Of a stretch of 64,000 bases of DNA, positions 15,469-64,000 are shown piece after piece. Position 1 is the stretch's first letter; every line of letters begins with the position of its first letter. Location of the stretch: the NCBI GenBank assembly GCA_035695825.1, contig DASRRH010000010.1:3806-67805 (forward strand), written 5' to 3'. This DNA is from Planctomycetota bacterium (GTDB taxonomy: Bacteria; Planctomycetota; UBA1135; JAKEFM01). The notes beneath the pieces are model-generated. The model ran no database searches. It saw only the letters and a list, made by a program, of their open reading frames with translations, and had not been told where the DNA came from. The position numbers and the translations under genes were made by a program.

Positions 15469-16056
15469 TTACTGGCGCGGCATCCTCGAGTCGAGGAGCC
15501 GGTTCCAGCCACCCCTTTCAAACCGTGCGTGCGGGTTTCCCGCACACGGCTTACCGAGAGTCTTCGCAGACGTGGCGTTCACGGGGTAGCACACGGTACC
15601 GCGCAGGCGATGGAGTCCCAGGGCGTGGAGCCGGGCAGCGGGCCAGCGATCGAAGCGAAAGCTCGTCCGCTGACCGCCCCGCCTCCACATCCAGCGGGCG
15701 AGCCGGTCGCGCACGTACTCGTCGAGCTGGGTGAACTTCAAGGCGGCGTTGCCGGTCTTGAAGTAGTTCCCCCAGCCGCGAAGGACGGGGTTCAGCGTCG
15801 CGATGACCGCCTTCACGTCCTTCGCTCCGCCCCGACTCGCGTCCGTCAGGTCATGGACGCGCTCGCGCACCCGCCTCCACGCTTCCCGCAGGACGTCACC
15901 CCTGCAGATCCGGTCGTAAAGCGCGTGGAAGCGCCGTGTCCTGCTCCGCTTGGCACACCTGTAAAGCGTGCGCTGGAGTTCTCGCACTTTTTCGTCGGGG
16001 TTGTTGGGCCTCACGGCCATGCCCTCGCGCTTACCCCCAGCGCACGCACGACCCAA
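15469..16056 (-). CDS. group II intron-encoded protein remnant: N-terminal segment joined in frame to the maturase (X) domain, RT core deleted
   Basis: VRELQRTLYRCAKRSRTRRFHALYDRICRGDVLREAWRRVRE is joined directly to RVHDLTDASRGG..VIATLNPVLRGWGNYFK...LDEYVRDRLARWMW. The likelier start is MAVRPN at 16020. The tail GKPCAGNPHARFERGGWNRLLDSRMPRQ is a read-through of DV/DVI RNA. Confidence 0.75.
   Translation of the reverse strand: MGRACAGGKREGMAVRPNNPDEKVRELQRTLYRCAKRSRTRRFHALYDRICRGDVLREAWRRVRERVHDLTDASRGGAKDVKAVIATLNPVLRGWGNYFKTGNAALKFTQLDEYVRDRLARWMWRRGGQRTSFRFDRWPAARLHALGLHRLRGTVCYPVNATSAKTLGKPCAGNPHARFERGGWNRLLDSRMPRQ
15520..15552 (-). other. group II intron domain V
   Basis: The minus strand reads AAGCCGUGUGCGGGAAACCCGCACGCACGGUUU. 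It has an AGC triad in the lower stem, a 2-nt bulge on the 3' strand and a GAAA-type apical loop. Confidence 0.85.
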
Positions 16057-16596
16057 GCAGGGCTCCTTCCCTCCGGCGGCTTGTGCGGACCGCCTTCACC
16101 GGTACTACGAGCCCCTCGGACTCCCTCCCGGCTCCGGTCGCTTTCGGCCTCCGGCGTTATGCGCCCGGTCTTCGCCCGACGTGGCCGCCGGGGAGGGTCT
16201 CTCCTGTTCCGCTCCTCACTACTACTTTCGCTACGTCCCGCGCCCTCTACCCCGGGGAGGGCCAGCGACCCATCCGAATGAAGATCGCTGTCCATGGCCT
16301 TCGCCGCGAGATGCCCGGCTCGGCCCTCCCAAACGCCTTTCGGCTGATAATCTGACGAGGCGGCAGGCTTCACTTGATGTTGCGGGCCGCAGCTTCGCTC
16401 CCTCCACGGCCGGAGGCTTTCGATGCCCCGCTCGGCCTCCGACCTCTCGGCCGGGGGCTGGGGCCTGCTACCGGGCGCTTCGGCGCCTACCCGGGCGGGA
16501 CTCTCACCCGCAAGCGAGGGGCAGTTCTCAGGACGCACCACCGGCGGATTTTAGGGGTGCCCCTCGCCCGGCCCGCATCCTTTCCCTCTCCGCCGT

Positions 16597-40240: not shown

Positions 40241-40900
40241 GTGGAAGGGGAACGGACGCGGGCCGCTCGGGAGCGGATGGTTCGCGACCAGCTCGCCGGC
40301 CGCGGGATCCGCGACGGACGGGTCCTCGCGACGATGCGGGTCGTGCCGCGCCACCTCTTCGTCGAGCCCTCGGAGGAAGGGCGCGCCTACGAGGACGGTC
40401 CGCTGCCGATCGGGTTCGGCGCGACGATTTCCCAGCCCTACGTCGTCGCCGCGATGACGGAGCTCCTCCGCCTGCGCGGGACGGAGAAGGTGCTCGAGAT
40501 CGGGAGCGGCTCGGGCTACCAGACGGCGGTCCTCGCGGAGCTCGCAGGAGAGGTCTACTCCGTCGAGATCGTCCCCGAGCTTCACGAGCGCGCGAAGCGC
40601 GTGCTCGAGGTCCTCGGCTACCGGAACGTCCACCTCCGCTGCGGCGACGGCGCGCGCGGCTGGCTCGAGGAAGCTCCGTTCGACGACATCCTCGTCACGG
40701 CCGCTCCCCCCGACGTCCCCTCCCCCCTCCTCGACCAGCTCGCCCTCGGCGGGCGGATGGTGATCCCGATCGGGAAGGAGCGGCAGACCCTTCACGTGTT
40801 CGAGAAGACGCCGAAGGGCATGGTGCGCGAGAAGTCCTTCGAGGTCCGGTTCGTGCCGCTCCAGGGGAAGGGGGAGAAGCCTCCCCCCGCGGCCCCCTAG
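40241..40900 (+). CDS. pcm: protein-L-isoaspartate O-methyltransferase
   Basis: GTG at 40241: VPRHLFV, ISQPYVVAAMTELL, VLEIGSGSGYQTAVLA, ILVTAA. Confidence 0.92.
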   Translation: MEGERTRAARERMVRDQLAGRGIRDGRVLATMRVVPRHLFVEPSEEGRAYEDGPLPIGFGATISQPYVVAAMTELLRLRGTEKVLEIGSGSGYQTAVLAELAGEVYSVEIVPELHERAKRVLEVLGYRNVHLRCGDGARGWLEEAPFDDILVTAAPPDVPSPLLDQLALGGRMVIPIGKERQTLHVFEKTPKGMVREKSFEVRFVPLQGKGEKPPPAAP

Positions 40901-41045
40901 CGATCGAGCCGGTCCCCCGATTCCCCGCCGCCCGGCTGGAGGTAGTCGCTCGGGGGCGCTAGCGTTCCTCCGCCGTTTCCCCATGAGAGCGAGTCGCGGT
41001 CTTCTAAGGCGATCGCCGGATTCGCGCGGACGAGGGCGCTGACGG

Positions 41046-42260
41046 ATGCCGGTCTTCGTCCGCGAGGTCGCGCTGCGCCACTACCGGAGCATCTCCCGGT
41101 GCAGGGTGCCGCTCTCTTCCCTCACCGTCCTCGTCGGACCGAATGGCTCCGGCAAGAGCAGCTTCCTCGACGCCCTCCACTTCGTTACGGACGCTCTGAA
41201 CACGACTCTCGAGAACGCCCTCCGCGACCGCGGAGGTATCGATTCCGTGCGGGGGCGGTCGGGCGGACGGCCGACGGACTTCGGCATCCAACTTTCCCTC
41301 AACCTGCGCGAGGGTGGAAGCGCGACCTACGGCTTCCTCGTCCGGGCGGAGAAGAATCGGGCGTTCTCCGTGAAGCACGAAGAGTGTCGCGTGGAAGGAG
41401 CGCCCCTGCGAGGGCCGGAACCTGCCCACTTCGTGGTCGAGAGAGGGAGGGTTCTCTCCATCCGCCCGGCCGTTCGCACGGCGGTCGAGCCCGACAGGCT
41501 CTTCCTGACGGCGGTCTCGGCGAGCCCCGAGTTTCGGCCCGTCTACGATGGGCTCTCGCGGATGGGCTTCTACAACCTGAATCCCGATCGGATCCGCGAT
41601 CTCCAGAACCCGGACCCGGGGAAACGGCTCGCCCGTGACGGCCACAACATTGCGTCGGTCCTCCGGGAGCTGAAGAGGACGACTCCGGCGGCGAAGGACA
41701 CGGTTTCCGAGTACCTCCGGAAGATCGTGCCGGGAGTCGAGTCGGTCGAACCGAAGACCCTGGGACCGAAGGAAACCCTCGAGTTCCGGCAGAGTCACGG
41801 AGACTCCCGTCCGTGGAAGTTCCTCGCGGGGGAGATGTCGGACGGAACGCTCCGCGCTCTCGGAGTCCTCGTCGCGGTCTTCCATGCGGAGGCAGACGCC
41901 GCACAGTCGGTCCCCCTCGTCGGAATCGAGGAACCCGAAGTTGCCATCCACCCCGGAGCCGCGGAGGTCCTCGCCGAGGCCCTGCTCGGAGCGTCGGAGA
42001 CCGTGCAGATCCTCCTCACGACCCACAGCCCCGATTTCCTCGATCACAAGGCGTTCGGCCCGGAGCACCTCCGGTCCGTCGACCTCCTCGAGGGATCGAC
42101 CATCATCACCTCGATCGACGAGGCGGCCCGGTCCGCCCTCCGCGACCGGCTCTACTCCGCGGGGGAACTCCTCCGCATGGGCCAGATCGAGACGAATCCG
42201 GAGGCATTCCGAACCGTGGCCCGCGAGCGGGACCTCTTCGAGGCGGGCCCGGACGGGTGA
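41046..42260 (+). CDS. ABC/SMC-type (AAA_15/AAA_21-like) ATPase, first gene of a two-gene cassette
   Basis: 404 aa: Walker A GPNGSGKSS, signature-like MSDGTLRAL, Walker B LVGIEEPEVAIHP, H-loop TTHSP. Spot-counted G+C is lower than in core genes. Confidence 0.85.
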   Translation: MPVFVREVALRHYRSISRCRVPLSSLTVLVGPNGSGKSSFLDALHFVTDALNTTLENALRDRGGIDSVRGRSGGRPTDFGIQLSLNLREGGSATYGFLVRAEKNRAFSVKHEECRVEGAPLRGPEPAHFVVERGRVLSIRPAVRTAVEPDRLFLTAVSASPEFRPVYDGLSRMGFYNLNPDRIRDLQNPDPGKRLARDGHNIASVLRELKRTTPAAKDTVSEYLRKIVPGVESVEPKTLGPKETLEFRQSHGDSRPWKFLAGEMSDGTLRALGVLVAVFHAEADAAQSVPLVGIEEPEVAIHPGAAEVLAEALLGASETVQILLTTHSPDFLDHKAFGPEHLRSVDLLEGSTIITSIDEAARSALRDRLYSAGELLRMGQIETNPEAFRTVARERDLFEAGPDG

Positions 42261-42920
42261 CCCTCCGGGTCGTCTGCATCGTCGAAGGCCACGCCGAGAC
42301 CGAGACGGTCCCGATCCTGCTCCGCCGGATCGCCCAGGAGGGCGCGCTCTACGACCTCGTGATCCCCCCCGCCCCTCCGGGTCCCGAAGTCAAGGCTTCT
42401 GAAGGAGGCGGAATTCAAGCGAGCCATCGATCTCGCCGGACGCAAGGCGGGACCGGGCGGCTCGGTCCTCGTGCTTCTCGACGCCGACGAGGACTGCCCG
42501 GCGGAACACGGACCGCGCCTCCTTGAGTGGGCGCATCGCGAGCGAGGCGACGTCGAAGGCGCGGTCGTCCTCGCCAAGCGTGAGATCGAAGCGTGGTTCG
42601 CCGCGTCGATCGAGTCCCTGAGGGGCCACCGTAGGGTCCGGCGGGATGCCTCGCCCCCCACCGAACCTGAGGCGATCGAGGACGCGAAGAGCTGGATGTC
42701 CGCGGCGATGGAGTACGGGGCGCGTTACGGGCCGGTCAAGGATCAGGCGGGACTCGCCCAGGCTTTCGACTTCTCGCTCGCGAGAAAGCGGTCTCCATCG
42801 TTCGAGAAGTTCCTTCGGGACGCTTCGCGGCTTCTTCAACTCCCGTCGTACCTGGACGGGGCGACCGCCTGGAGCGATCGACGGGACGTGCTCTCCCGTC
42901 CGACCGCGCGAGACGCTTGA
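42257..42920 (+). pseudogene. TOPRIM-like (DUF4276-type) protein gene, split by a 1-nt frameshift in a C7 run
   Basis: A GTG at 42257 overlaps the ATPase stop (GTGA). Frame A: VTLRVVCIVEGHAETETVPILLRRIAQEGALYDLVIPP. Frame B, open from 42363: PPLRVPKSRLLKEAEFKRAIDLAGRKAGPGGSVLVLLDADEDCPAEHGP...REIEAWFAAS. Removing one C from 42364-42370 gives a single 220-codon ORF. Confidence 0.8.
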
Positions 42921-43208
42921 CCGACGTCGAGAGGAGGACGCAGTCACGGCCCGAGGCTGATGGAGCCTCTCATCGGTGATTCGCCCCCGTAGGCCCGACA
43001 CAGGGAGTCACTTGCAGGGTTTGAAGACACACGTAGCAGAAGCCCGATCGTGACTTATGCAGGGCCTCCGCCCGAACATCGCAGACCAGGCCCCAGACCT
43101 CCCGCGGCGGCGGAGAGGTCGGGGATCGAGGGAGACCCCTTCGACCCCCGGAAGCACGGCCATCACTTCCTGAGGGGGGAATTGCTTCCCGTCGGCCCCC
43201 AGGGACGG

Positions 43209-43277
43209 TCCTACTCCCACTCGATCGTCGCGAGAGGCTTGCTCGAGACGTCGAGGACGACGCGTTCCACGCCGCGC
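43209..43277. repeat. direct repeat copy B (guaA 3'-end sequence, att-like)
   Basis: Shares two identical blocks with 43882-43950, of 23 nt (tcctactcccactcgatcgtcgc) and 26 nt (ggcttgctcgagacgtcgaggacgac), plus cacgccgcg. Confidence 0.85.
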
Positions 43278-43337
43278 AGCTCGGGGGCGATCCGGCACGA
43301 GATCCGCGCGGGGAGCTCCTCCGGCGGGCAGACCCCC
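43211..43337 (-). pseudogene. orphan, diverged copy of the last ~40 codons of guaA
   Basis: Minus-strand translation ...[36 protein letters not shown] compares with authentic guaA ...[36 protein letters not shown]. Confidence 0.8.
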
Positions 43338-43385
43338 TCCGCGGTTCTCCCGCCCCCGGTCGCGACGCGCCGCCGGTCCTTCTCC

Positions 43386-43859
43386 TCAGCGAACCCTTCG
43401 GTCCCTCCGGCTCCATTTCACGATGGGCCTCAGGCCGGCAGCGTTCGCCGCGTTCGTGTAGAGGTCCACGAGTTTGCGGCGGTAGAAGATCGTCCAGAGC
43501 CGGCGATCCCCCTTGTTCGGGAAGAAGGTCCGCAACCCTTCAAACCGTGGCACGCAGCTCTCCGGTTTCCCGGTTTCCCGGAGGAGCTCGCGGACCCACC
43601 CGCTCCACTGCTCCTCCGTGGGGAAGGGGATTTCCGCGAACGACTCCGGGTGGCGCTCGACTCTCTCGCGCGCTCGCCGGTTCGCGAGAACGGAATCGGC
43701 CAGGAGTTCGACCTCTATCGACTCGTCGTAGGTCAGCGTGGCGAGCTGGCCCGTGGTGCGGTCGAGGAAGACCCGCCACGGCGATCCGGCCTCCTCTCGG
43801 AGGACCGAATACACCAGCCACGCGGGAACCTCGACCGTTCCGTCGAGACCAGGATCCAC
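43386..43859 (-). CDS. hypothetical protein (157 aa), the sole gene between the two guaA 3'-end copies
   Basis: Balanced, non-repetitive sequence: ...[26 protein letters not shown]...[20 protein letters not shown]...[22 protein letters not shown]. The layout is reminiscent of UPF0158-type proteins, but I cannot verify this. Confidence 0.6.
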
Positions 43860-43881
43860 GGAATGCCCGGCTCGCGTGGGA

Positions 43882-43950
43882 TCCTACTCCCACTCGATCG
43901 TCGCCGGGGGCTTGCTCGAGACGTCGAGGACGACCCGGTTCACGCCGCGG
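43882..43950. repeat. direct repeat copy A (authentic guaA 3' end)
   Basis: See copy B. This copy is contiguous with the full-length guaA reading frame. Confidence 0.85.
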
Positions 43951-45434
43951 ACCTCGTTGATGATCCGGTTCGAGATCCTCCCGAGGAGCTCCCGCGGCAG
44001 ATAGACCCAGTCCGCCGTCATCCCGTCCTCGCTCGCGACGATCCGGAGCGCGATCACGTTCTCGTAGGTCCGTGCGTCCCCCATCACGCCGACCGTCGAG
44101 ACGGGAAGCAGGATCGCGAAGTACTGCCAAAGCCCCTCGTGGGCGCGGGCCCGCTCGACCTCCTCCACGACGATCGCGTCGGCCTCGCGGAGGATCGCGA
44201 GCCGCTCCTCGGTGACGGGGCCGAGGAGTCGCACGGCGAGCCCGGGCCCCGGGAAAGGCTGGCGAGCGACGATCGACGCGGGGAGCCCGAGCGCGCGGCC
44301 GACCTCCCGGACCTCGTCCTTGAAGAGGAAGCGCAGCGGCTCGACGAGGGCGAAGGGCATGTCCGGCGGGAGGCCCCCGACATTGTGGTGGCTCTTGATC
44401 ATCGAGGTCGCCCCGCCCCACGCCGCGACCGACTCGATCACGTCGGGGTAGAGCGTCCCCTGTCCGAGGAACTTCGCCCGGGGGAACCGCGAGGACGCCT
44501 CCCGGAAGACGGCGATGAACTCGGCTCCGATGCGCTTTCGCTTCTCCTCGGGATCGACGACGTCGCGGAGGCGCTCGAGGAAGCGCGCGCGGGCGTCGAG
44601 GACGGTGAGATCCATGTGGAAGTGGGCGCGGAACGTCCGTTCGACCTCCTCGCCTTCCCCCCTCCGGAGCAGGCCGTTGTCGACGAAGACGGCGTGGAGG
44701 CGCGGGCCGATGGCCTTGTGGAGGATCAACGAGGCGACGGCCGAGTCGACGCCCCCGGAGAGCCCCAACACGACCTCGCCGTCGCCGACCTTCGCGCGGA
44801 TCTCCTCGACGGCCTGCTCGATCACGGAGGAGGGCGTCCAGTCGCCAGCGAGGCCGCAGACGCGGAAGAGGAAGTTCCGGAGGACCTCCCGCCCCCGCTC
44901 CGTGTGGGTCACTTCCGGGTGGAACAGGACGCCGAAGATCCGACCCGTCGAGTCGACGACGGCGGCGTGGGCGCAATTGCCGGAGCGGGCGACGGTCCGG
45001 AACCCCTCGGGAAGGCGCTCCACCCTGTCGCCGTGGCTCATCCAGACGACGCTGCTCGTCGGGACTCCTTCGAAGAGAGGAGAAGTCCCGGTCACGTCGA
45101 GGGGGGAGCGACCGAACTCTCGGGCTTCCCCGGGGACCACCTTTCCGCCGAGGGCCCCCGTAAGCCACTGCATCCCGTAGCAGATGCCGAGGACCGGGAC
45201 GCGCAGGCCGAGCACCGACTCCCGGTCGAGGGCCGGGGCGTCGGTCTCGTACACGCTCGCGGGACCGCCGGAGAGGATCACCCCCTTCGGCCGGAGGCGC
45301 GCGGCCGCCTCGGCGAAGCGCGCGGGGGGGTGGATCTCGCAGTAGACGAGCGCCTCGCGGACGCGCCGGGCGATCAACTGGGCGGTCTGGGAGCCGAAGT
45401 CGACGACGAGGACCGCCTCGTGCGGCGCGCTCAT
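43884..45434 (-). CDS. guaA: GMP synthase (glutamine-hydrolysing)
   Basis: The ATG at 45434 overlaps the guaB stop (ATGA): VLVVDFGSQTAQLIARRVRE, GICYGMQ, LGLSGGVDSAV, SHHNVGGLP, ending ...KPPATIEWE. Confidence 0.95.
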   Translation of the reverse strand: MSAPHEAVLVVDFGSQTAQLIARRVREALVYCEIHPPARFAEAAARLRPKGVILSGGPASVYETDAPALDRESVLGLRVPVLGICYGMQWLTGALGGKVVPGEAREFGRSPLDVTGTSPLFEGVPTSSVVWMSHGDRVERLPEGFRTVARSGNCAHAAVVDSTGRIFGVLFHPEVTHTERGREVLRNFLFRVCGLAGDWTPSSVIEQAVEEIRAKVGDGEVVLGLSGGVDSAVASLILHKAIGPRLHAVFVDNGLLRRGEGEEVERTFRAHFHMDLTVLDARARFLERLRDVVDPEEKRKRIGAEFIAVFREASSRFPRAKFLGQGTLYPDVIESVAAWGGATSMIKSHHNVGGLPPDMPFALVEPLRFLFKDEVREVGRALGLPASIVARQPFPGPGLAVRLLGPVTEERLAILREADAIVVEEVERARAHEGLWQYFAILLPVSTVGVMGDARTYENVIALRIVASEDGMTADWVYLPRELLGRISNRIINEVRGVNRVVLDVSSKPPATIEWE

Positions 45435-61463: not shown

Positions 61464-62708
61464 ATGCGCGACATCGAGCTCTACCGCCATCTCCTCGGAC
61501 TCGAGCAGCCCTGGACCGTGACGAAGGTCGCCCTCGACGTGAAGGAGCAACGCGTCGACGTCTGGGTCGACCACGCCGAGGGCCTGAAGTGGCCCTGCCC
61601 GGCCTGCGCCCAGGAGCTGCCTCTCTACGATCACTCCGAGGAGCGCGCCTGGCGTCACCTCGACAGCTGCCAGTTCCAGACTCTCCTCCACGCCCGTCCT
61701 CCGCGCGTGGAGTGCTCCGAGCACGGGGTCCGGCAGGTCGCGCTTCCCTGGGCGGAGCCCCGAGCACGGTTCACGGCGCTCTTCGAGCGGCTCGCGATCG
61801 ACGTGCTCCTGGAGACCAGCATCGAGGCGGCGACTCGGATCCTGCGTATCAGCTGGGACGAGGCCTGGTACCTGCTCGAGCGCGCGGTCCGCCGGGGCCT
61901 GCTCGCCCGAAAGCCGCGGGTCCGGGCCCACCTCGGCGTCGACGAGAAGTCCTTCGCCAAGCGGTACCGCTACGCCACCATCGTGAGCGACCTCGAGGAG
62001 GGCGAGGTCGTCTACGTCGAGAGGGATCGGAAGAAGGAGAGCCTGGACGGCTACTTCTTCTCCCTCACCCCCGAGGAGCGGGAGGGGATCGAAGCGGTCG
62101 CGATGGACATGTGGGAGCCCTACGTCCAGTCCGTCCGCCGGCACGTTCCTCGAGGCGAGGAGCGCGTGGTCTTCGATCGCTTCCACGTCATGGGTCACAT
62201 GAACAAGGCCGTCGACCAGGTGCGCCGGCGGGAGAACGAGGAGCTTCGGGAGACCGGGGACGGCACGCTCACCGGGACCAAGCACCTGTGGCTCTACGCG
62301 CGGGAGAACCTCCCCGCCCGCCACGAGGAGAGATTCACCGAGTTGCGCCGTGCGGACCTCAAGACCGCACGGGCATGGGGGCTGAAGGAAAACTTGCGCC
62401 GGCTCTGGGAGTTCATGCACCCGAGCTCGGCCTGGCGGCACTGGAGGGAGTGGTTCGGCTGGGCGATCCGCTCCAAGCTCGAACCGGTCCTGCAGGTCGC
62501 CCGGATGATCCGAAGCCATCTCCGCGGCGTGATGAACTTCTACGACCACCCGATCACGAACGCCGTGAGCGAGGGGCTCAACTCCAAGATCCAGAAGTTC
62601 AAGCAGGTGGCGTGCGGGTTCCGCAACTTCGATCACTTCCGCACCGCCATCTACTTCCACTGCGGCGGCCTACAGCTCTACCCGGTCACCCACGGAATTC
62701 CCGGATGA
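61464..62708 (+). CDS. ISL3-family transposase
   Basis: 414 aa: N-terminal zinc-finger region (WPCPACAQELPLYDHSEERAWRHLD), then GVDEKSFAKRYRYATIVSDLE...AVAMDMWEPY...FHVMGHMNKAVDQVRR...TNAVSEGLNSKIQ. Confidence 0.9.
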   Translation: MRDIELYRHLLGLEQPWTVTKVALDVKEQRVDVWVDHAEGLKWPCPACAQELPLYDHSEERAWRHLDSCQFQTLLHARPPRVECSEHGVRQVALPWAEPRARFTALFERLAIDVLLETSIEAATRILRISWDEAWYLLERAVRRGLLARKPRVRAHLGVDEKSFAKRYRYATIVSDLEEGEVVYVERDRKKESLDGYFFSLTPEEREGIEAVAMDMWEPYVQSVRRHVPRGEERVVFDRFHVMGHMNKAVDQVRRRENEELRETGDGTLTGTKHLWLYARENLPARHEERFTELRRADLKTARAWGLKENLRRLWEFMHPSSAWRHWREWFGWAIRSKLEPVLQVARMIRSHLRGVMNFYDHPITNAVSEGLNSKIQKFKQVACGFRNFDHFRTAIYFHCGGLQLYPVTHGIPG

Positions 62709-62796
62709 CCCGAAGAAGGCAACCCCTCTCCCGGTCTTCCGACGACGGGGGAAGGTCGGGAGCGTTCTCGGCTCCCTGAGGACGCGGCTCCTCCGT

Positions 62797-64000
62797 CTAA
62801 AAGATCAGCTCGACCGTGTTCGACCCGTCGTTGATGGTAAGGGTCGAGAGATTGAAGTAGAAGGCGGCCGCGTAGAGGACTGCGCCGGCCAGGCCCGGCG
62901 GAATCGAGATCGACGCGGTCGTGGCCTGCATGTCCGTGAACACACTCGGAATGCCGCTCGCCATGCAGGCGACGTCGCCGGCGAAGTGGCAGTTCAACCC
63001 CGCACCGACCGTCGCGGAGAAGGAAAGGGACGCGCTCGTCGCGGCCGTCGAGTAAATGCCGAGGACGCCCGTCGAGCCCGGGACGAACATGCTCCCCGCG
63101 AGGAAGCCCGGCGGGTTGCCCGGAGGCGCCAGCCCGAGCGGGCTGCCGGCCGTGCTGTCGGAGATCATCACCGCGGCGAGCCGGTCCTGGCCCGCCATAG
63201 CCGCCGACCCGGCCTCCCAGTCCTCCGAACGGAGGAAAAAGGCGTCCCCAGAGACGAGCTCGCGCGCGCCCGAGCCCCGCGTCGGGGCCGCAAAGCCCGC
63301 CGTCAGCCGGTAGGACTCGAGCGTCGGCTCGTAAAAGGCCATCTCCGCGAAGAGCTCCTGGTTGATCGCGTAGTGCGTCACGACCCCGAGGAGCGCGTCG
63401 AACGATCCCGAATAGCTGTACCCCGCCGGCCCGGGCGGGACCGAGGGGTTGGAAACCGTGTTGACCTCGGTCGTCAGCTGGACGTTCCGGTAATAGTTGG
63501 CCTGGGTCGCAACCTCGCCCGGCGTGTAGAGGAGCAGCATCGCGACGTCGGCGTTCGAGAGCACCGGGAGCCCCGCCGTGGTCGGGCAGGAACCGGGGAG
63601 CGCCACGGCCGGGCCGACGGGCGAAACGTTGATTCGGAACCCGCCCATCGGAAGAGGGATCCCTCCGACGACTGCGACGTAGTTGGGAACGGCCGTCCTG
63701 TCGGGCTCCCTCACTCCACCCACGAGGACGACGGGCCGAAGCTCGAGGTCGGGGATGTCGAAGGACTGGGTTCCTGGTGTCAGGCTCCAGACCCCGATCT
63801 CCCAGCTCGTGAACGTGGCGAGCCCGCTCCCGCGGGTCATCCCGTTCTCGACCCCCCAGATCTTCCACTCGGCGTCCCCGAGGACGTTCCCGGTCGCGCC
63901 GTTCGGGCCGGCGAGCGCCGTGGCGGGACCGCCGCGGTGGTTGCGGATCCCGTTCTGGTGGTGGCAGACGATCTGCGTGCCGTTGCACGCCACCGCGCAC
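62797..64000 (-). CDS. hypothetical secreted/surface protein, C-terminal >=400 codons (gene continues past the right edge)
   Basis: The frame is open to the window edge (...CAVACNGTQIVCHH...). G/S/T/A/N-rich beta-type composition, ending ...LTINDGSNTVELIF*. G+C is lower than in core genes. Confidence 0.6.
   Translation of the reverse strand, partial: CAVACNGTQIVCHHQNGIRNHRGGPATALAGPNGATGNVLGDAEWKIWGVENGMTRGSGLATFTSWEIGVWSLTPGTQSFDIPDLELRPVVLVGGVREPDRTAVPNYVAVVGGIPLPMGGFRINVSPVGPAVALPGSCPTTAGLPVLSNADVAMLLLYTPGEVATQANYYRNVQLTTEVNTVSNPSVPPGPAGYSYSGSFDALLGVVTHYAINQELFAEMAFYEPTLESYRLTAGFAAPTRGSGARELVSGDAFFLRSEDWEAGSAAMAGQDRLAAVMISDSTAGSPLGLAPPGNPPGFLAGSMFVPGSTGVLGIYSTAATSASLSFSATVGAGLNCHFAGDVACMASGIPSVFTDMQATTASISIPPGLAGAVLYAAAFYFNLSTLTINDGSNTVELIF

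What the first reader, a model, noticed from the sequence alone, without database searches (positions are those of the whole stretch)
41046..42920. Coupled ABC/SMC-type ATPase + TOPRIM-like (DUF4276-type) pair: a candidate split-OLD / PARIS-like defence module
Seen in sequence. Gene 1 has a complete ABC-type ATPase motif set: GPNGSGKSS, MSDGTLRAL, LVGIEEPE, TTHSP. Gene 2 starts at a GTG overlapping the gene 1 stop (GTGA). It carries an N-terminal IVEGHAETE, a central VLVLLDADEDCP and then EIEAWF. A conserved Glu in a beta-strand-EG context plus a DxD is the TOPRIM catalytic signature. Established knowledge: an ABC ATPase combined with a TOPRIM nuclease is the architecture of OLD-family nucleases, Gabija GajA and the PARIS AriA/AriB pair. 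Inference: this cassette is a two-polypeptide relative of those systems using a different TOPRIM-like family. To my knowledge that family has not been experimentally characterised as a named defence system. It sits in a lower-GC patch next to an att-like scar, which fits horizontal acquisition.
Basis: partly seen in the sequence, partly recalled or inferred. Interest (0 to 1): 0.7.

Follow-up and report, generated by a model that had tools for sequence, protein, structure and literature searches.

The report
Known HEC-01 defence pair, nuclease frameshifted
This is an ordinary copy of an already catalogued two-gene candidate anti-phage module (PADLOC "HEC-01": an ABC ATPase plus a TOPRIM-like DUF4276 nuclease), and here the nuclease gene is broken by a one-base insertion, so it is probably inactive.

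Summary
Gene 1 (41046-42260, 404 aa) is an intact ABC ATPase with all four quoted motifs. Gene 2 starts at the overlapping GTG (42257) and is a DUF4276 protein. It is split by a +1 frameshift in a C7 run (42364-42370).

The reading [quoted passage not shown] holds. E10, D75xD77 and E109/E111 are conserved. A confident model of the intact orthologue matches only the OLD TOPRIM region in the PDB.

The novelty claim does not hold. PADLOC-DB v2 recognises both proteins full length as HEC-01A (4.8e-148) and HEC-01B (3.1e-66). Payne et al. 2024 described this pair as ATPase + TOPRIM and found no defence in E. coli. A cold-seep study reported protection by one HEC-01 representative. A 2025 paper places DUF4276 in the TOPRIM superfamily.

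The pair is widespread (at least 475 loci in species-representative genomes). It is almost always an intact, solitary two-gene cassette among housekeeping genes.

Here it looks foreign (GC3 0.79-0.85 against 0.93-0.96 for neighbours). The "att-like scar" is a duplicated guaA 3' end that flanks a different small insertion (orphan ORF157), not this cassette.

Verdict: already known, locally degenerate, low interest.

The parts
41046..42260 (+). HEC-01A: intact ABC (SMC/Rad50/PtuA-like) ATPase, 404 aa. Motifs: Walker A 41136-41162, signature 41835-41861, Walker B 41916-41939, H-loop 42018-42032.
   Evidence: PADLOC PDLC04178 HEC-01A 4.8e-148, profile 7-394/399. Pfam AAA_21/AAA_15/SMC_N. AF2 pLDDT 92.4; best PDB folds are PtuA, SMC head and Rad50. 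Motif residues invariant in 53 homologues.
42257..42920 (+). HEC-01B: DUF4276 / TOPRIM-like nuclease gene, disrupted by a +1 frameshift. The N-terminal 37 codons (with catalytic E10) are in frame 1. The rest (DADED, EIEAWF, helical C-terminal part) is in frame 2. As it stands, frame 1 stops at 42524-42526. The longest remaining ORF is 42471-42920 (149 aa), which lacks strand 1 and E10.
   Evidence: Repaired protein: PADLOC PDLC04196 HEC-01B 3.1e-66, profile 1-193/197, and Pfam DUF4276 1-189/192. The 149-aa fragment covers only profile 73-193/197.
42364..42370 (+). C7 homopolymer holding the extra base that breaks HEC-01B.
   Evidence: DNA alignment with two relatives that carry one base fewer here (CCCACCT-CC, CCCTCCT-CC). 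The same C7 is present in the JGI contig and in an independent Logan assembly. No intact 100%-identical protein exists in the 5.8-billion-protein collection, although the ATPase is recorded from NCBI, JGI and Logan.
41035..42835 (+). Extent of the mobile two-gene cassette, judged by where homology with related loci begins and ends.
   Evidence: L012 homology starts at 41035. L010 and L011 homology ends at 42835 and 42821. The flanks differ between genomes (pcm vs DUF642 on the left; guaA vs an unrelated ORF on the right).
43211..43372 (-). Pseudo-fragment of the guaA 3' end (last 53 codons plus stop; 81% nt and 66% aa identity to the real guaA end at 43884-44045). This is the 'att-like scar'.
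   Evidence: Absent from the related MAG locus L011, where HEC-01B is about 90 bp from the guaA stop.
43386..43859 (-). ORF157: orphan gene lying between the two guaA-3' copies. Probably the remnant cargo of a separate guaA-targeted insertion; not part of HEC-01.
   Evidence: Coding-like GC1/2/3 of 0.66/0.49/0.83. No Pfam, PHROG or PADLOC match. Only itself in the word-indexed search. Seven weak unannotated relatives in the exhaustive search.

Best explanation
The locus is a horizontally acquired copy of the PADLOC candidate defence system HEC-01. It is a translationally coupled two-gene cassette: HEC-01A, an ABC ATPase of the OLD/Gabija/Septu/PARIS kind, and HEC-01B, a DUF4276 protein with a TOPRIM-like nuclease fold.

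How intact cassettes most likely work is inferred by analogy with PARIS, Septu and OLD. It has not been shown for HEC-01. The ATPase would oligomerise and hold or gate the nuclease. A phage-derived trigger, or loss of ATP control, would release or activate the TOPRIM domain. Its E...DxD (plus ExE) metal site would then cut nucleic acid and stop the infected cell or the phage.

In this window the effector gene carries a one-base insertion in a C7 run. That separates the catalytic Glu strand from the DxD core. The most likely state is therefore a decaying, inactive module: an intact ATPase beside a nuclease pseudogene. It lies between pcm and guaA, next to an unrelated small guaA-3'-targeted insertion.
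For: Family assignment:
- HEC-01A 4.8e-148 and HEC-01B 3.1e-66, both full length.
- HEC-01 is described in the literature as ABC ATPase + TOPRIM, and DUF4276 as a member of the TOPRIM superfamily.

Fold and active site:
- HEC-01B orthologue model: pLDDT 94.9. The only four PDB matches with E at or below about 2e-3 are OLD C-terminal regions.
- E10 is invariant in the 88-sequence alignment and at least 90% in the 25-sequence one. D75, E109, E111 and W113 are invariant in both. D77 is invariant in 25 and at least 90% in 88.
- ATPase model: pLDDT 92.4. Best folds are PtuA, SMC and Rad50.

Operon conservation:
- The ATPase lies immediately upstream in 78 of 80 genome loci; the other two are at contig ends.
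- The same holds in 9 of 9 annotated contexts, usually with a 4-nt overlap.

Frameshift:
- locate it. It is identical in two assemblies.
- No intact identical protein is known in any source.
- Intactness is the norm elsewhere: 79 of 80 loci.

Foreign origin:
- GC3 0.79-0.85 against 0.93-0.96 for neighbours.
- Flanks differ among close relatives.
Against: - The defence function of HEC-01 is weakly established. There is one negative test in E. coli against the BASEL phages and one positive spot assay with a different representative.
- No biochemical data exist for any DUF4276 protein. The nuclease target and the ATPase-nuclease interaction are pure analogy.
- The fold match to OLD is modest (TM about 0.42, E about 1e-3). 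The profile finds no PDB sequence.
- None of the 9 annotated contexts shows defence or mobile-element neighbours.
- I could not inspect reads. The frameshift could still be an assembly artefact shared by assemblers, or a variable tract.
Confidence: 0.75

Rival explanations
1. The module is functional. The C7 run is either a consensus or sequencing error, or a reversible on/off switch: slipped-strand phase variation, or +1 ribosomal or transcriptional slippage on CCC-CCC-C. Such a switch would gate expression of a potentially toxic nuclease.
For: - The break sits exactly in a homopolymer.
- Gene 2 shows no other lesion; one base restores a full-length, well-conserved protein.
- The ATPase is intact.
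- CCC-C sites are known +1-prone sites (my own knowledge, not tested here).
Against: - The same C7 is in two independently built assemblies.
- No intact identical product is recorded from any source, although the ATPase is recorded from NCBI, JGI and Logan.
- The tract is not conserved as a homopolymer in the two closest relatives or implied by the 79 of 80 intact single-frame loci. There is therefore no sign of an evolved switch.
- Neighbouring housekeeping genes are all full length, so the assembly is not indel-prone.
Confidence: 0.15
2. The pair is not an immune system. It is a selfish addiction or toxin-control cassette, or a DNA-repair accessory of the RecF/OLD-like kind, that spreads as a solitary two-gene unit.
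For: - All 9 annotated contexts are solitary insertions among housekeeping genes, with no defence neighbours.
- Payne et al. saw no defence for HEC-01 and note that most of their shortlisted candidates are not enriched near defence systems.
- AAA_21 is Pfam's 'putative AbiEii toxin, type IV TA' family.
Against: - HEC-01 was found because it is repeatedly embedded inside Hma systems.
- One representative protected E. coli B against at least one of T4, T5 and T7.
- The closest relatives of both parts are defence proteins: OLD, GajA, PtuA, AriA, MAD3/Mad4.
- Patchy distribution and foreign composition argue against a housekeeping repair role.
Confidence: 0.1

Closest known systems
HEC-01 (Hma-embedded candidate 01; PADLOC-DB v2.0.0; Payne, Hughes, Fineran & Jackson, bioRxiv 10.1101/2024.01.29.577857)
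   Same: - Both proteins match its HMMs over their full length (4.8e-148 and 3.1e-66).
- Same gene order, strand and coupling.
- Same description: ABC ATPase + TOPRIM-like protein with an OLD-like metal site.
   Different: - This copy is not embedded in an Hma system or any other defence system.
- Its HEC-01B gene is frameshifted.
PARIS (AriA ABC ATPase + AriB DUF4435 TOPRIM nuclease)
   Same: - Split two-polypeptide ATPase + TOPRIM architecture.
- AriA models hit gene 1 partially (5.5e-27).
- DUF4276-containing systems are placed in the same AAA15/21 tree in PMC11464382, Fig. 6c.
   Different: - The effector is DUF4276, not DUF4435. No AriB or DUF4435 hit for gene 2.
- The ATPase is far closer to HEC-01A.
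- A tRNA-cleaving mechanism and Ocr-type triggering are shown for PARIS only.
OLD-family nucleases (class 1 P2 Old / Thermus scotoductus 6P74; class 2 Burkholderia and Xanthomonas 6NK8/6NJV) and Gabija GajA
   Same: - Best sequence match of gene 1 in the PDB is class 1 OLD (4.7e-10), followed by GajA.
- Best and only significant fold matches of HEC-01B are class 2 OLD C-terminal regions.
- The E/DxD metal-site logic is shared.
   Different: - OLD and GajA fuse ATPase and TOPRIM in one chain; here they are two genes.
- No GajB/UvrD helicase partner.
- TM-score is only about 0.42.
MADS (methylation-associated defence system) Mad3 ATPase / Mad4 DUF4276
   Same: - Mad3 models hit gene 1 (PADLOC mad3 3.1e-20, NCBIfam MAD3 6.1e-30).
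- Mad4 is reported as a DUF4276 homologue (PMC12065111).
   Different: - The NCBIfam score of 104.7 is far below the 420 cut-off.
- No mad4 model hit for gene 2.
- No methyltransferase or other mad genes within 10 kb.
Septu / retron Ec78-Eco7 PtuA-PtuB
   Same: - The gene 1 model's top structural matches are PtuA chains (E about 1e-14).
- Same logic of an ABC ATPase partnered with a small nuclease.
   Different: The partner nuclease there is HNH (PtuB), not TOPRIM/DUF4276. No retron RT or msr-msd here.

Membership tests
HEC-01 (PADLOC candidate system) | Protein matching an HEC-01A HMM | tested here: met
   PDLC04178, 4.8e-148, residues 3-398 on profile 7-394/399.
HEC-01 (PADLOC candidate system) | Adjacent same-strand protein matching an HEC-01B HMM | tested here: met
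   Repaired product: PDLC04196, 3.1e-66, profile 1-193/197. The 149-aa ORF as it stands: 3.9e-41, covering only profile 73-193/197. GTGA overlap with gene 1.
HEC-01 (PADLOC candidate system) | Both genes intact (a functional system) | tested here: not met
   +1 frameshift in the C7 run at 42364-42370 separates E10 from the DxD core. Identical in two assemblies.
HEC-01 (PADLOC candidate system) | Anti-phage phenotype | not testable with these tools
   Literature only: negative in Payne et al.; positive for one representative in the cold-seep study.
TOPRIM superfamily | Conserved Glu after strand 1 and DxD after strand 3 | tested here: met
   E10 is invariant in the 88-sequence alignment. D75 is invariant and D77 at least 90%. 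In the model E10 follows strand 3-9 and D75/D77 end strand 69-75.
TOPRIM superfamily | TOPRIM-like three-layer alpha/beta fold | tested here: met
PARIS | AriB: DUF4435-type TOPRIM effector | tested here: not met
   Gene 2 hits only HEC-01B models in PADLOC (E up to 1) and only DUF4276 in Pfam (E up to 10).
PARIS | AriA-type ATPase as best match | tested here: not met
   AriA models score 5.5e-27 and 2e-21 over partial stretches, against 4.8e-148 for HEC-01A.
OLD family / Gabija GajA | ATPase and TOPRIM fused in one polypeptide (for Gabija, also a GajB helicase neighbour) | tested here: not met
   Two separate genes. Gene 1 ends at 404 aa with no TOPRIM. No UvrD-like neighbour within 10 kb.
MADS | Mad3 equivalog-level match, Mad4, and the accompanying methyltransferase and other mad genes | tested here: not met
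   NCBIfam MAD3 scores 104.7 bits against a cut-off of 420. No mad4 hit. Neighbours are gatCAB, pcm, guaA and guaB.
ABC ATPase (SMC/Rad50/OLD clade) | Walker A, signature, Walker B and H-loop motifs, plus the ABC head fold | tested here: met
   Motifs located and invariant in homologues. The model matches PtuA, SMC heads and Rad50 at E about 1e-13 to 1e-14.

The most novel reading that the evidence does not exclude
The C7 tract in HEC-01B could be a contingency switch rather than a dead end. Slipped-strand or +1 translational slippage would toggle a toxic TOPRIM effector on and off in a Planctomycetota population. The intact ATPase would be kept as the standing sensor. This would be phase-variable control of an ABC-ATPase/TOPRIM defence module. 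The independent frameshift in the related MAG (L011) would then reflect recurrent selection to silence the effector.
Probability: 0.06. Interest if true: 0.5.

Novelty: already known. Interest (0 to 1): 0.15.

Why it matters
It matters little beyond annotation. The locus should be labelled "HEC-01 (PADLOC candidate), HEC-01B pseudogene", not reported as a new defence architecture.

The broader family remains worth study. DUF4276 nucleases have no biochemistry, and HEC-01 has conflicting phenotype data. It occurs in at least 475 species-representative genomes as a strikingly solitary, well-conserved cassette. That case rests on the family, which is already in the literature, not on this broken copy.

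Tried and rejected
- A profile of 88 HEC-01B homologues found no PDB sequence even at E = 10. The TOPRIM link rests on fold and motifs only.
- Rfam at a permissive threshold over 40850-44000 found nothing meaningful. No sigma-70-like promoter or intrinsic terminator pattern was found in 40700-44000.
- The only tRNA in the window is 14 kb away, so there is no tRNA-att explanation.
- I considered the guaA-3' duplication as the boundary of an island carrying HEC-01 and rejected it. The two copies flank only ORF157, a 673-bp unit. A related MAG has HEC-01 about 90 bp from guaA without the duplication. guaA adjacency is also not a family trait: 1 of 80 loci has guaA within 10 kb.
- I tested ORF157 as a possible third component and rejected it. 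It is on the opposite strand, is an orphan, is unrelated to the 156-aa ORF downstream of HEC-01B in L003, and has no family hits.
- A literature search for Mad3/Mad4 returned only irrelevant papers.
- I did not attempt a statistical defence-island enrichment. No offline HMM library or reliable gene caller for high-GC DNA was available. The claim of solitary context rests on 9 pre-annotated contexts.
Full report
**What is in the sequence**

Gene 1 runs from 41046 to 42260 (+) and encodes 404 aa.
- Walker A GPNGSGKSS, aa 31-39
- ABC signature MSDGTLRAL, aa 264-272
- Walker B LVGIEEPE, aa 291-298
- H-loop TTHSP, aa 325-329

Pfam gives AAA_21 (2.4e-26, full length), AAA_15 and SMC_N. In an alignment of 53 homologues at 51-60% identity these residues are invariant: G31, N33, G36, K37, S38, S265, D266, G267, E295-E298, H327, S328, P329.

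Gene 2 begins at GTG 42257, inside a GTGA overlap with the gene 1 stop. IVEGHAETE is read in that frame. VLVLLDADEDCP and EIEAWF are in the next frame. The break is a run of seven C at 42364-42370. Deleting one C gives a 220-aa protein with a full-length DUF4276 match (2e-12, profile 1-189/192). Without the repair only profile positions 40-189 are matched.

The repair is not arbitrary:
- The DNA alignment shows the window has exactly one extra base relative to two relatives.

**Is the frameshift real?**

The window is part of JGI metagenome contig Ga0376049_0000057 (167 kb). An independent Logan assembly of SRR11742948 has the identical locus with the same C7.

The ATPase is on record with 100% identity from NCBI (a Planctomycetota MAG), JGI and Logan. 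The only 100%-identical gene 2 product on record is the 149-aa fragment, and no intact version exists in 5.8 billion clustered proteins. The neighbouring gatC/A/B, pcm, guaA and guaB genes are all full length, so the assembly is not generally indel-prone.

I could not look at reads. I therefore treat the frameshift as probably genuine (about 0.7-0.8), not proven.

As it stands, translation from GTG 42257 ends at 42524-42526 after an out-of-frame tail. The 149-aa ORF from 42471 lacks strand 1 and Glu10. Neither product can form a complete TOPRIM site.

**What it is**

PADLOC-DB v2.0.0 recognises both proteins over their full lengths:
- HEC-01A: PDLC04178, 4.8e-148, profile 7-394/399.
- HEC-01B: PDLC04196, 3.1e-66, profile 1-193/197.

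Every other system scores far lower: AriA 5.5e-27 (partial), mad3 3.1e-20, Old 2.3e-20, GajA about 1e-16. Gene 2 hits no model other than HEC-01B.

What the literature says about HEC-01 and DUF4276:
- HEC-01 is one of the "Hma-embedded candidates" of Payne et al. (bioRxiv 10.1101/2024.01.29.577857). They describe it as an ABC ATPase with a TOPRIM-domain partner that shares the metal-binding site of Burkholderia OLD.
- They tested one representative in E. coli against BASEL and classic phages and detected no defence.
- A later cold-seep metagenome study (10.1101/2024.09.26.614923, also PMC12881386) reports that one randomly chosen HEC-01 cluster protected E. coli B against at least one of T4, T5 and T7.
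- The Menshen analysis (PMC12065111) states that DUF4276 is a member of the TOPRIM superfamily with the Glu and DxD residues. It adds that Mad4 of the methylation-associated defence system is a DUF4276 homologue.

**Independent checks of the fold and active site**

For HEC-01B I modelled the intact orthologue with an 88-sequence alignment (pLDDT 94.9, pTM 0.90).
- Strand 1 (residues 3-9) is followed by E10-G11.
- Strand 3 (residues 69-75) ends in D75-x-D77.
- Strand 4 (residues 100-106) is followed by E109-x-E111-W113.
- A helical C-terminal half follows.

E10, G11, D75, E109, E111 and W113 are invariant, and D77 and D79 are at least 90% conserved.

Foldseek against the PDB returns four OLD C-terminal regions as the top hits (6njv, 6nk8, 6njx, 6njw; probability 0.99-1.0, E 9e-4 to 2e-3, TM 0.40-0.42). 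Nothing else falls below E 0.04. The match is specific but moderate. A sequence profile finds no PDB chain at all.

For HEC-01A the model (pLDDT 92.4) matches PtuA of Septu and retron Ec78/Eco7, SMC heads and Rad50 at E about 1e-13 to 1e-14. By sequence the nearest solved chains are class 1 OLD (4.7e-10), a retron-IA ATPase, PtuA and GajA.

**Distribution and context**

They are prominent in Poribacteria, Acidobacteriota, Gemmatimonadota, Actinomycetota, Chloroflexota and Planctomycetota.

In the best 80 loci:
- The ATPase lies immediately upstream in 78; the other two are at contig ends.
- HEC-01B is a single-frame, essentially full-length match in 79.

Disruption as seen here is therefore the exception.

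Nine distinct contexts carry precomputed Pfam annotation (the window plus L003, L005, L007, L008, L009, L013, L016 and L017). In all nine the pair is a solitary two-gene insertion among metabolic or housekeeping genes. None has an integrase, transposase, restriction-modification or other recognisable defence gene within 10 kb.

**Horizontal acquisition and the att-like scar**

The locus is 67.8% GC against 72.7% for the window, which is the 1.6th percentile for windows of the same size. GC3 is 0.85 (A) and 0.79 (B) against 0.93-0.96 for the five flanking housekeeping genes.

Close relatives place the cassette in different surroundings:
- In MAG GCA_050730375.1 (80-81% nt identity in the cassette, 92% in guaA) the left neighbour is a DUF642 gene rather than pcm. 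The right neighbour is guaA, about 90 bp away.
- In Logan contig L010 the right neighbour is an unrelated ORF.
- Homology with the window runs from 41035 to about 42821-42835, which delimits the mobile unit.

It is 81% nt and 66% aa identical to the true guaA end at 43884-44045. The two copies flank only ORF157 (43386-43859), which has a coding-like base pattern but essentially no relatives. Because the related MAG has HEC-01 beside guaA without this unit, the scar records a separate small insertion at the guaA 3' end. It is not the arrival of HEC-01. guaA adjacency is not a family trait: 1 of 80 loci has guaA within 10 kb.

**Mechanism: shown and inferred**

Shown here:
- An intact ABC ATPase with conserved catalytic motifs.
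- A partner with a TOPRIM-like fold and conserved acidic residues.
- Tight, conserved operon coupling.
- Foreign composition.
- A frameshift that splits the effector.

Inferred by analogy with PARIS, Septu, Gabija and OLD:
- The ATPase oligomer senses a phage cue and controls the nuclease.
- The nuclease then degrades DNA or RNA.

The substrate, the trigger and the stoichiometry are unknown for every HEC-01. For this copy the best reading is an inactive remnant (confidence about 0.75 for the whole statement). The family assignment itself is close to certain.

**Rivals**

(a) The gene is in fact intact or switchable, through an error, phase variation or +1 slippage on the C run. I give this about 0.15. 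Its main weakness is that the tract is not conserved in relatives and every assembly shows C7.

(b) The cassette is a selfish or repair module rather than an immune system. I give this about 0.1. The solitary contexts and the negative test support it. The Hma embedding, the positive test and the defence affiliation of every relative speak against it.

**A side observation**

The related MAG locus L011 has its own frameshift in HEC-01B, a 1-nt deletion about 15 codons downstream and not in a homopolymer. It has another in the ATPase. This could mean recurrent decay of the cassette in this lineage, or just a low-coverage assembly (contigs of 1.5-2.4 kb). I cannot tell which.

**Verdict**

The kind of system is already known, and this copy is probably dead. 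Interest is low (0.15).

Noticed in passing
window 43211-44045 (-): The last 53 codons of guaA are duplicated. The copy at 43211-43372 is 81% nt identical to the real guaA end at 43884-44045. The two copies flank a single orphan gene, ORF157 (43386-43859). This looks like the remnant of a small element that targeted the guaA 3' end; no integrase is present. A related MAG lacks it.
   Followed up: partly
L011 (GCA_050730375.1, JBOHNB010000837.1) about 240-700; L012: The closest related Planctomycetota MAG carries the same cassette next to guaA, with independent frameshifts in both HEC-01B (a 1-nt deletion, not in a homopolymer) and HEC-01A. Either the cassette is decaying repeatedly in this lineage, or the short contigs contain assembly errors.
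   Followed up: partly
window 15490-16513 (-): Rfam gathering-level matches to group II intron domains (RF02003 D1-D4, 73.8 bits, at 16375-16513; RF00029, 41.2 bits, at 15490-15554). These indicate a group II intron about 25 kb upstream of the locus.
   Followed up: no
L018-L097 (genome-contig loci): The HEC-01 subfamily occurs in at least 475 species-representative genomes and is especially frequent in sponge-associated Candidatus Poribacteria. About a quarter of the best 80 loci are from that group. The cassettes are nearly always intact.
   Followed up: partly
P0245 (1136 aa protein from the representative library): One of the few weak relatives of ORF157 is a large surface-type protein (Flg_new and Big_2 domains). 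It matches the ORF157 query in five separate stretches, which hints that ORF157 may derive from a repeat module.
   Followed up: no
window 62001-64000: A second low-GC stretch (67.7% against 72.7% for the window) at the right end of the window. Not examined.
   Followed up: no
window 42921-43210: About 290 bp of non-coding-looking sequence between the HEC-01B stop and the guaA' fragment. It contains a locally AT-richer segment (cacttgcagggtttgaagacacacgtagcagaag). It has no Rfam, promoter or terminator match and no homology in the related loci.
   Followed up: partly
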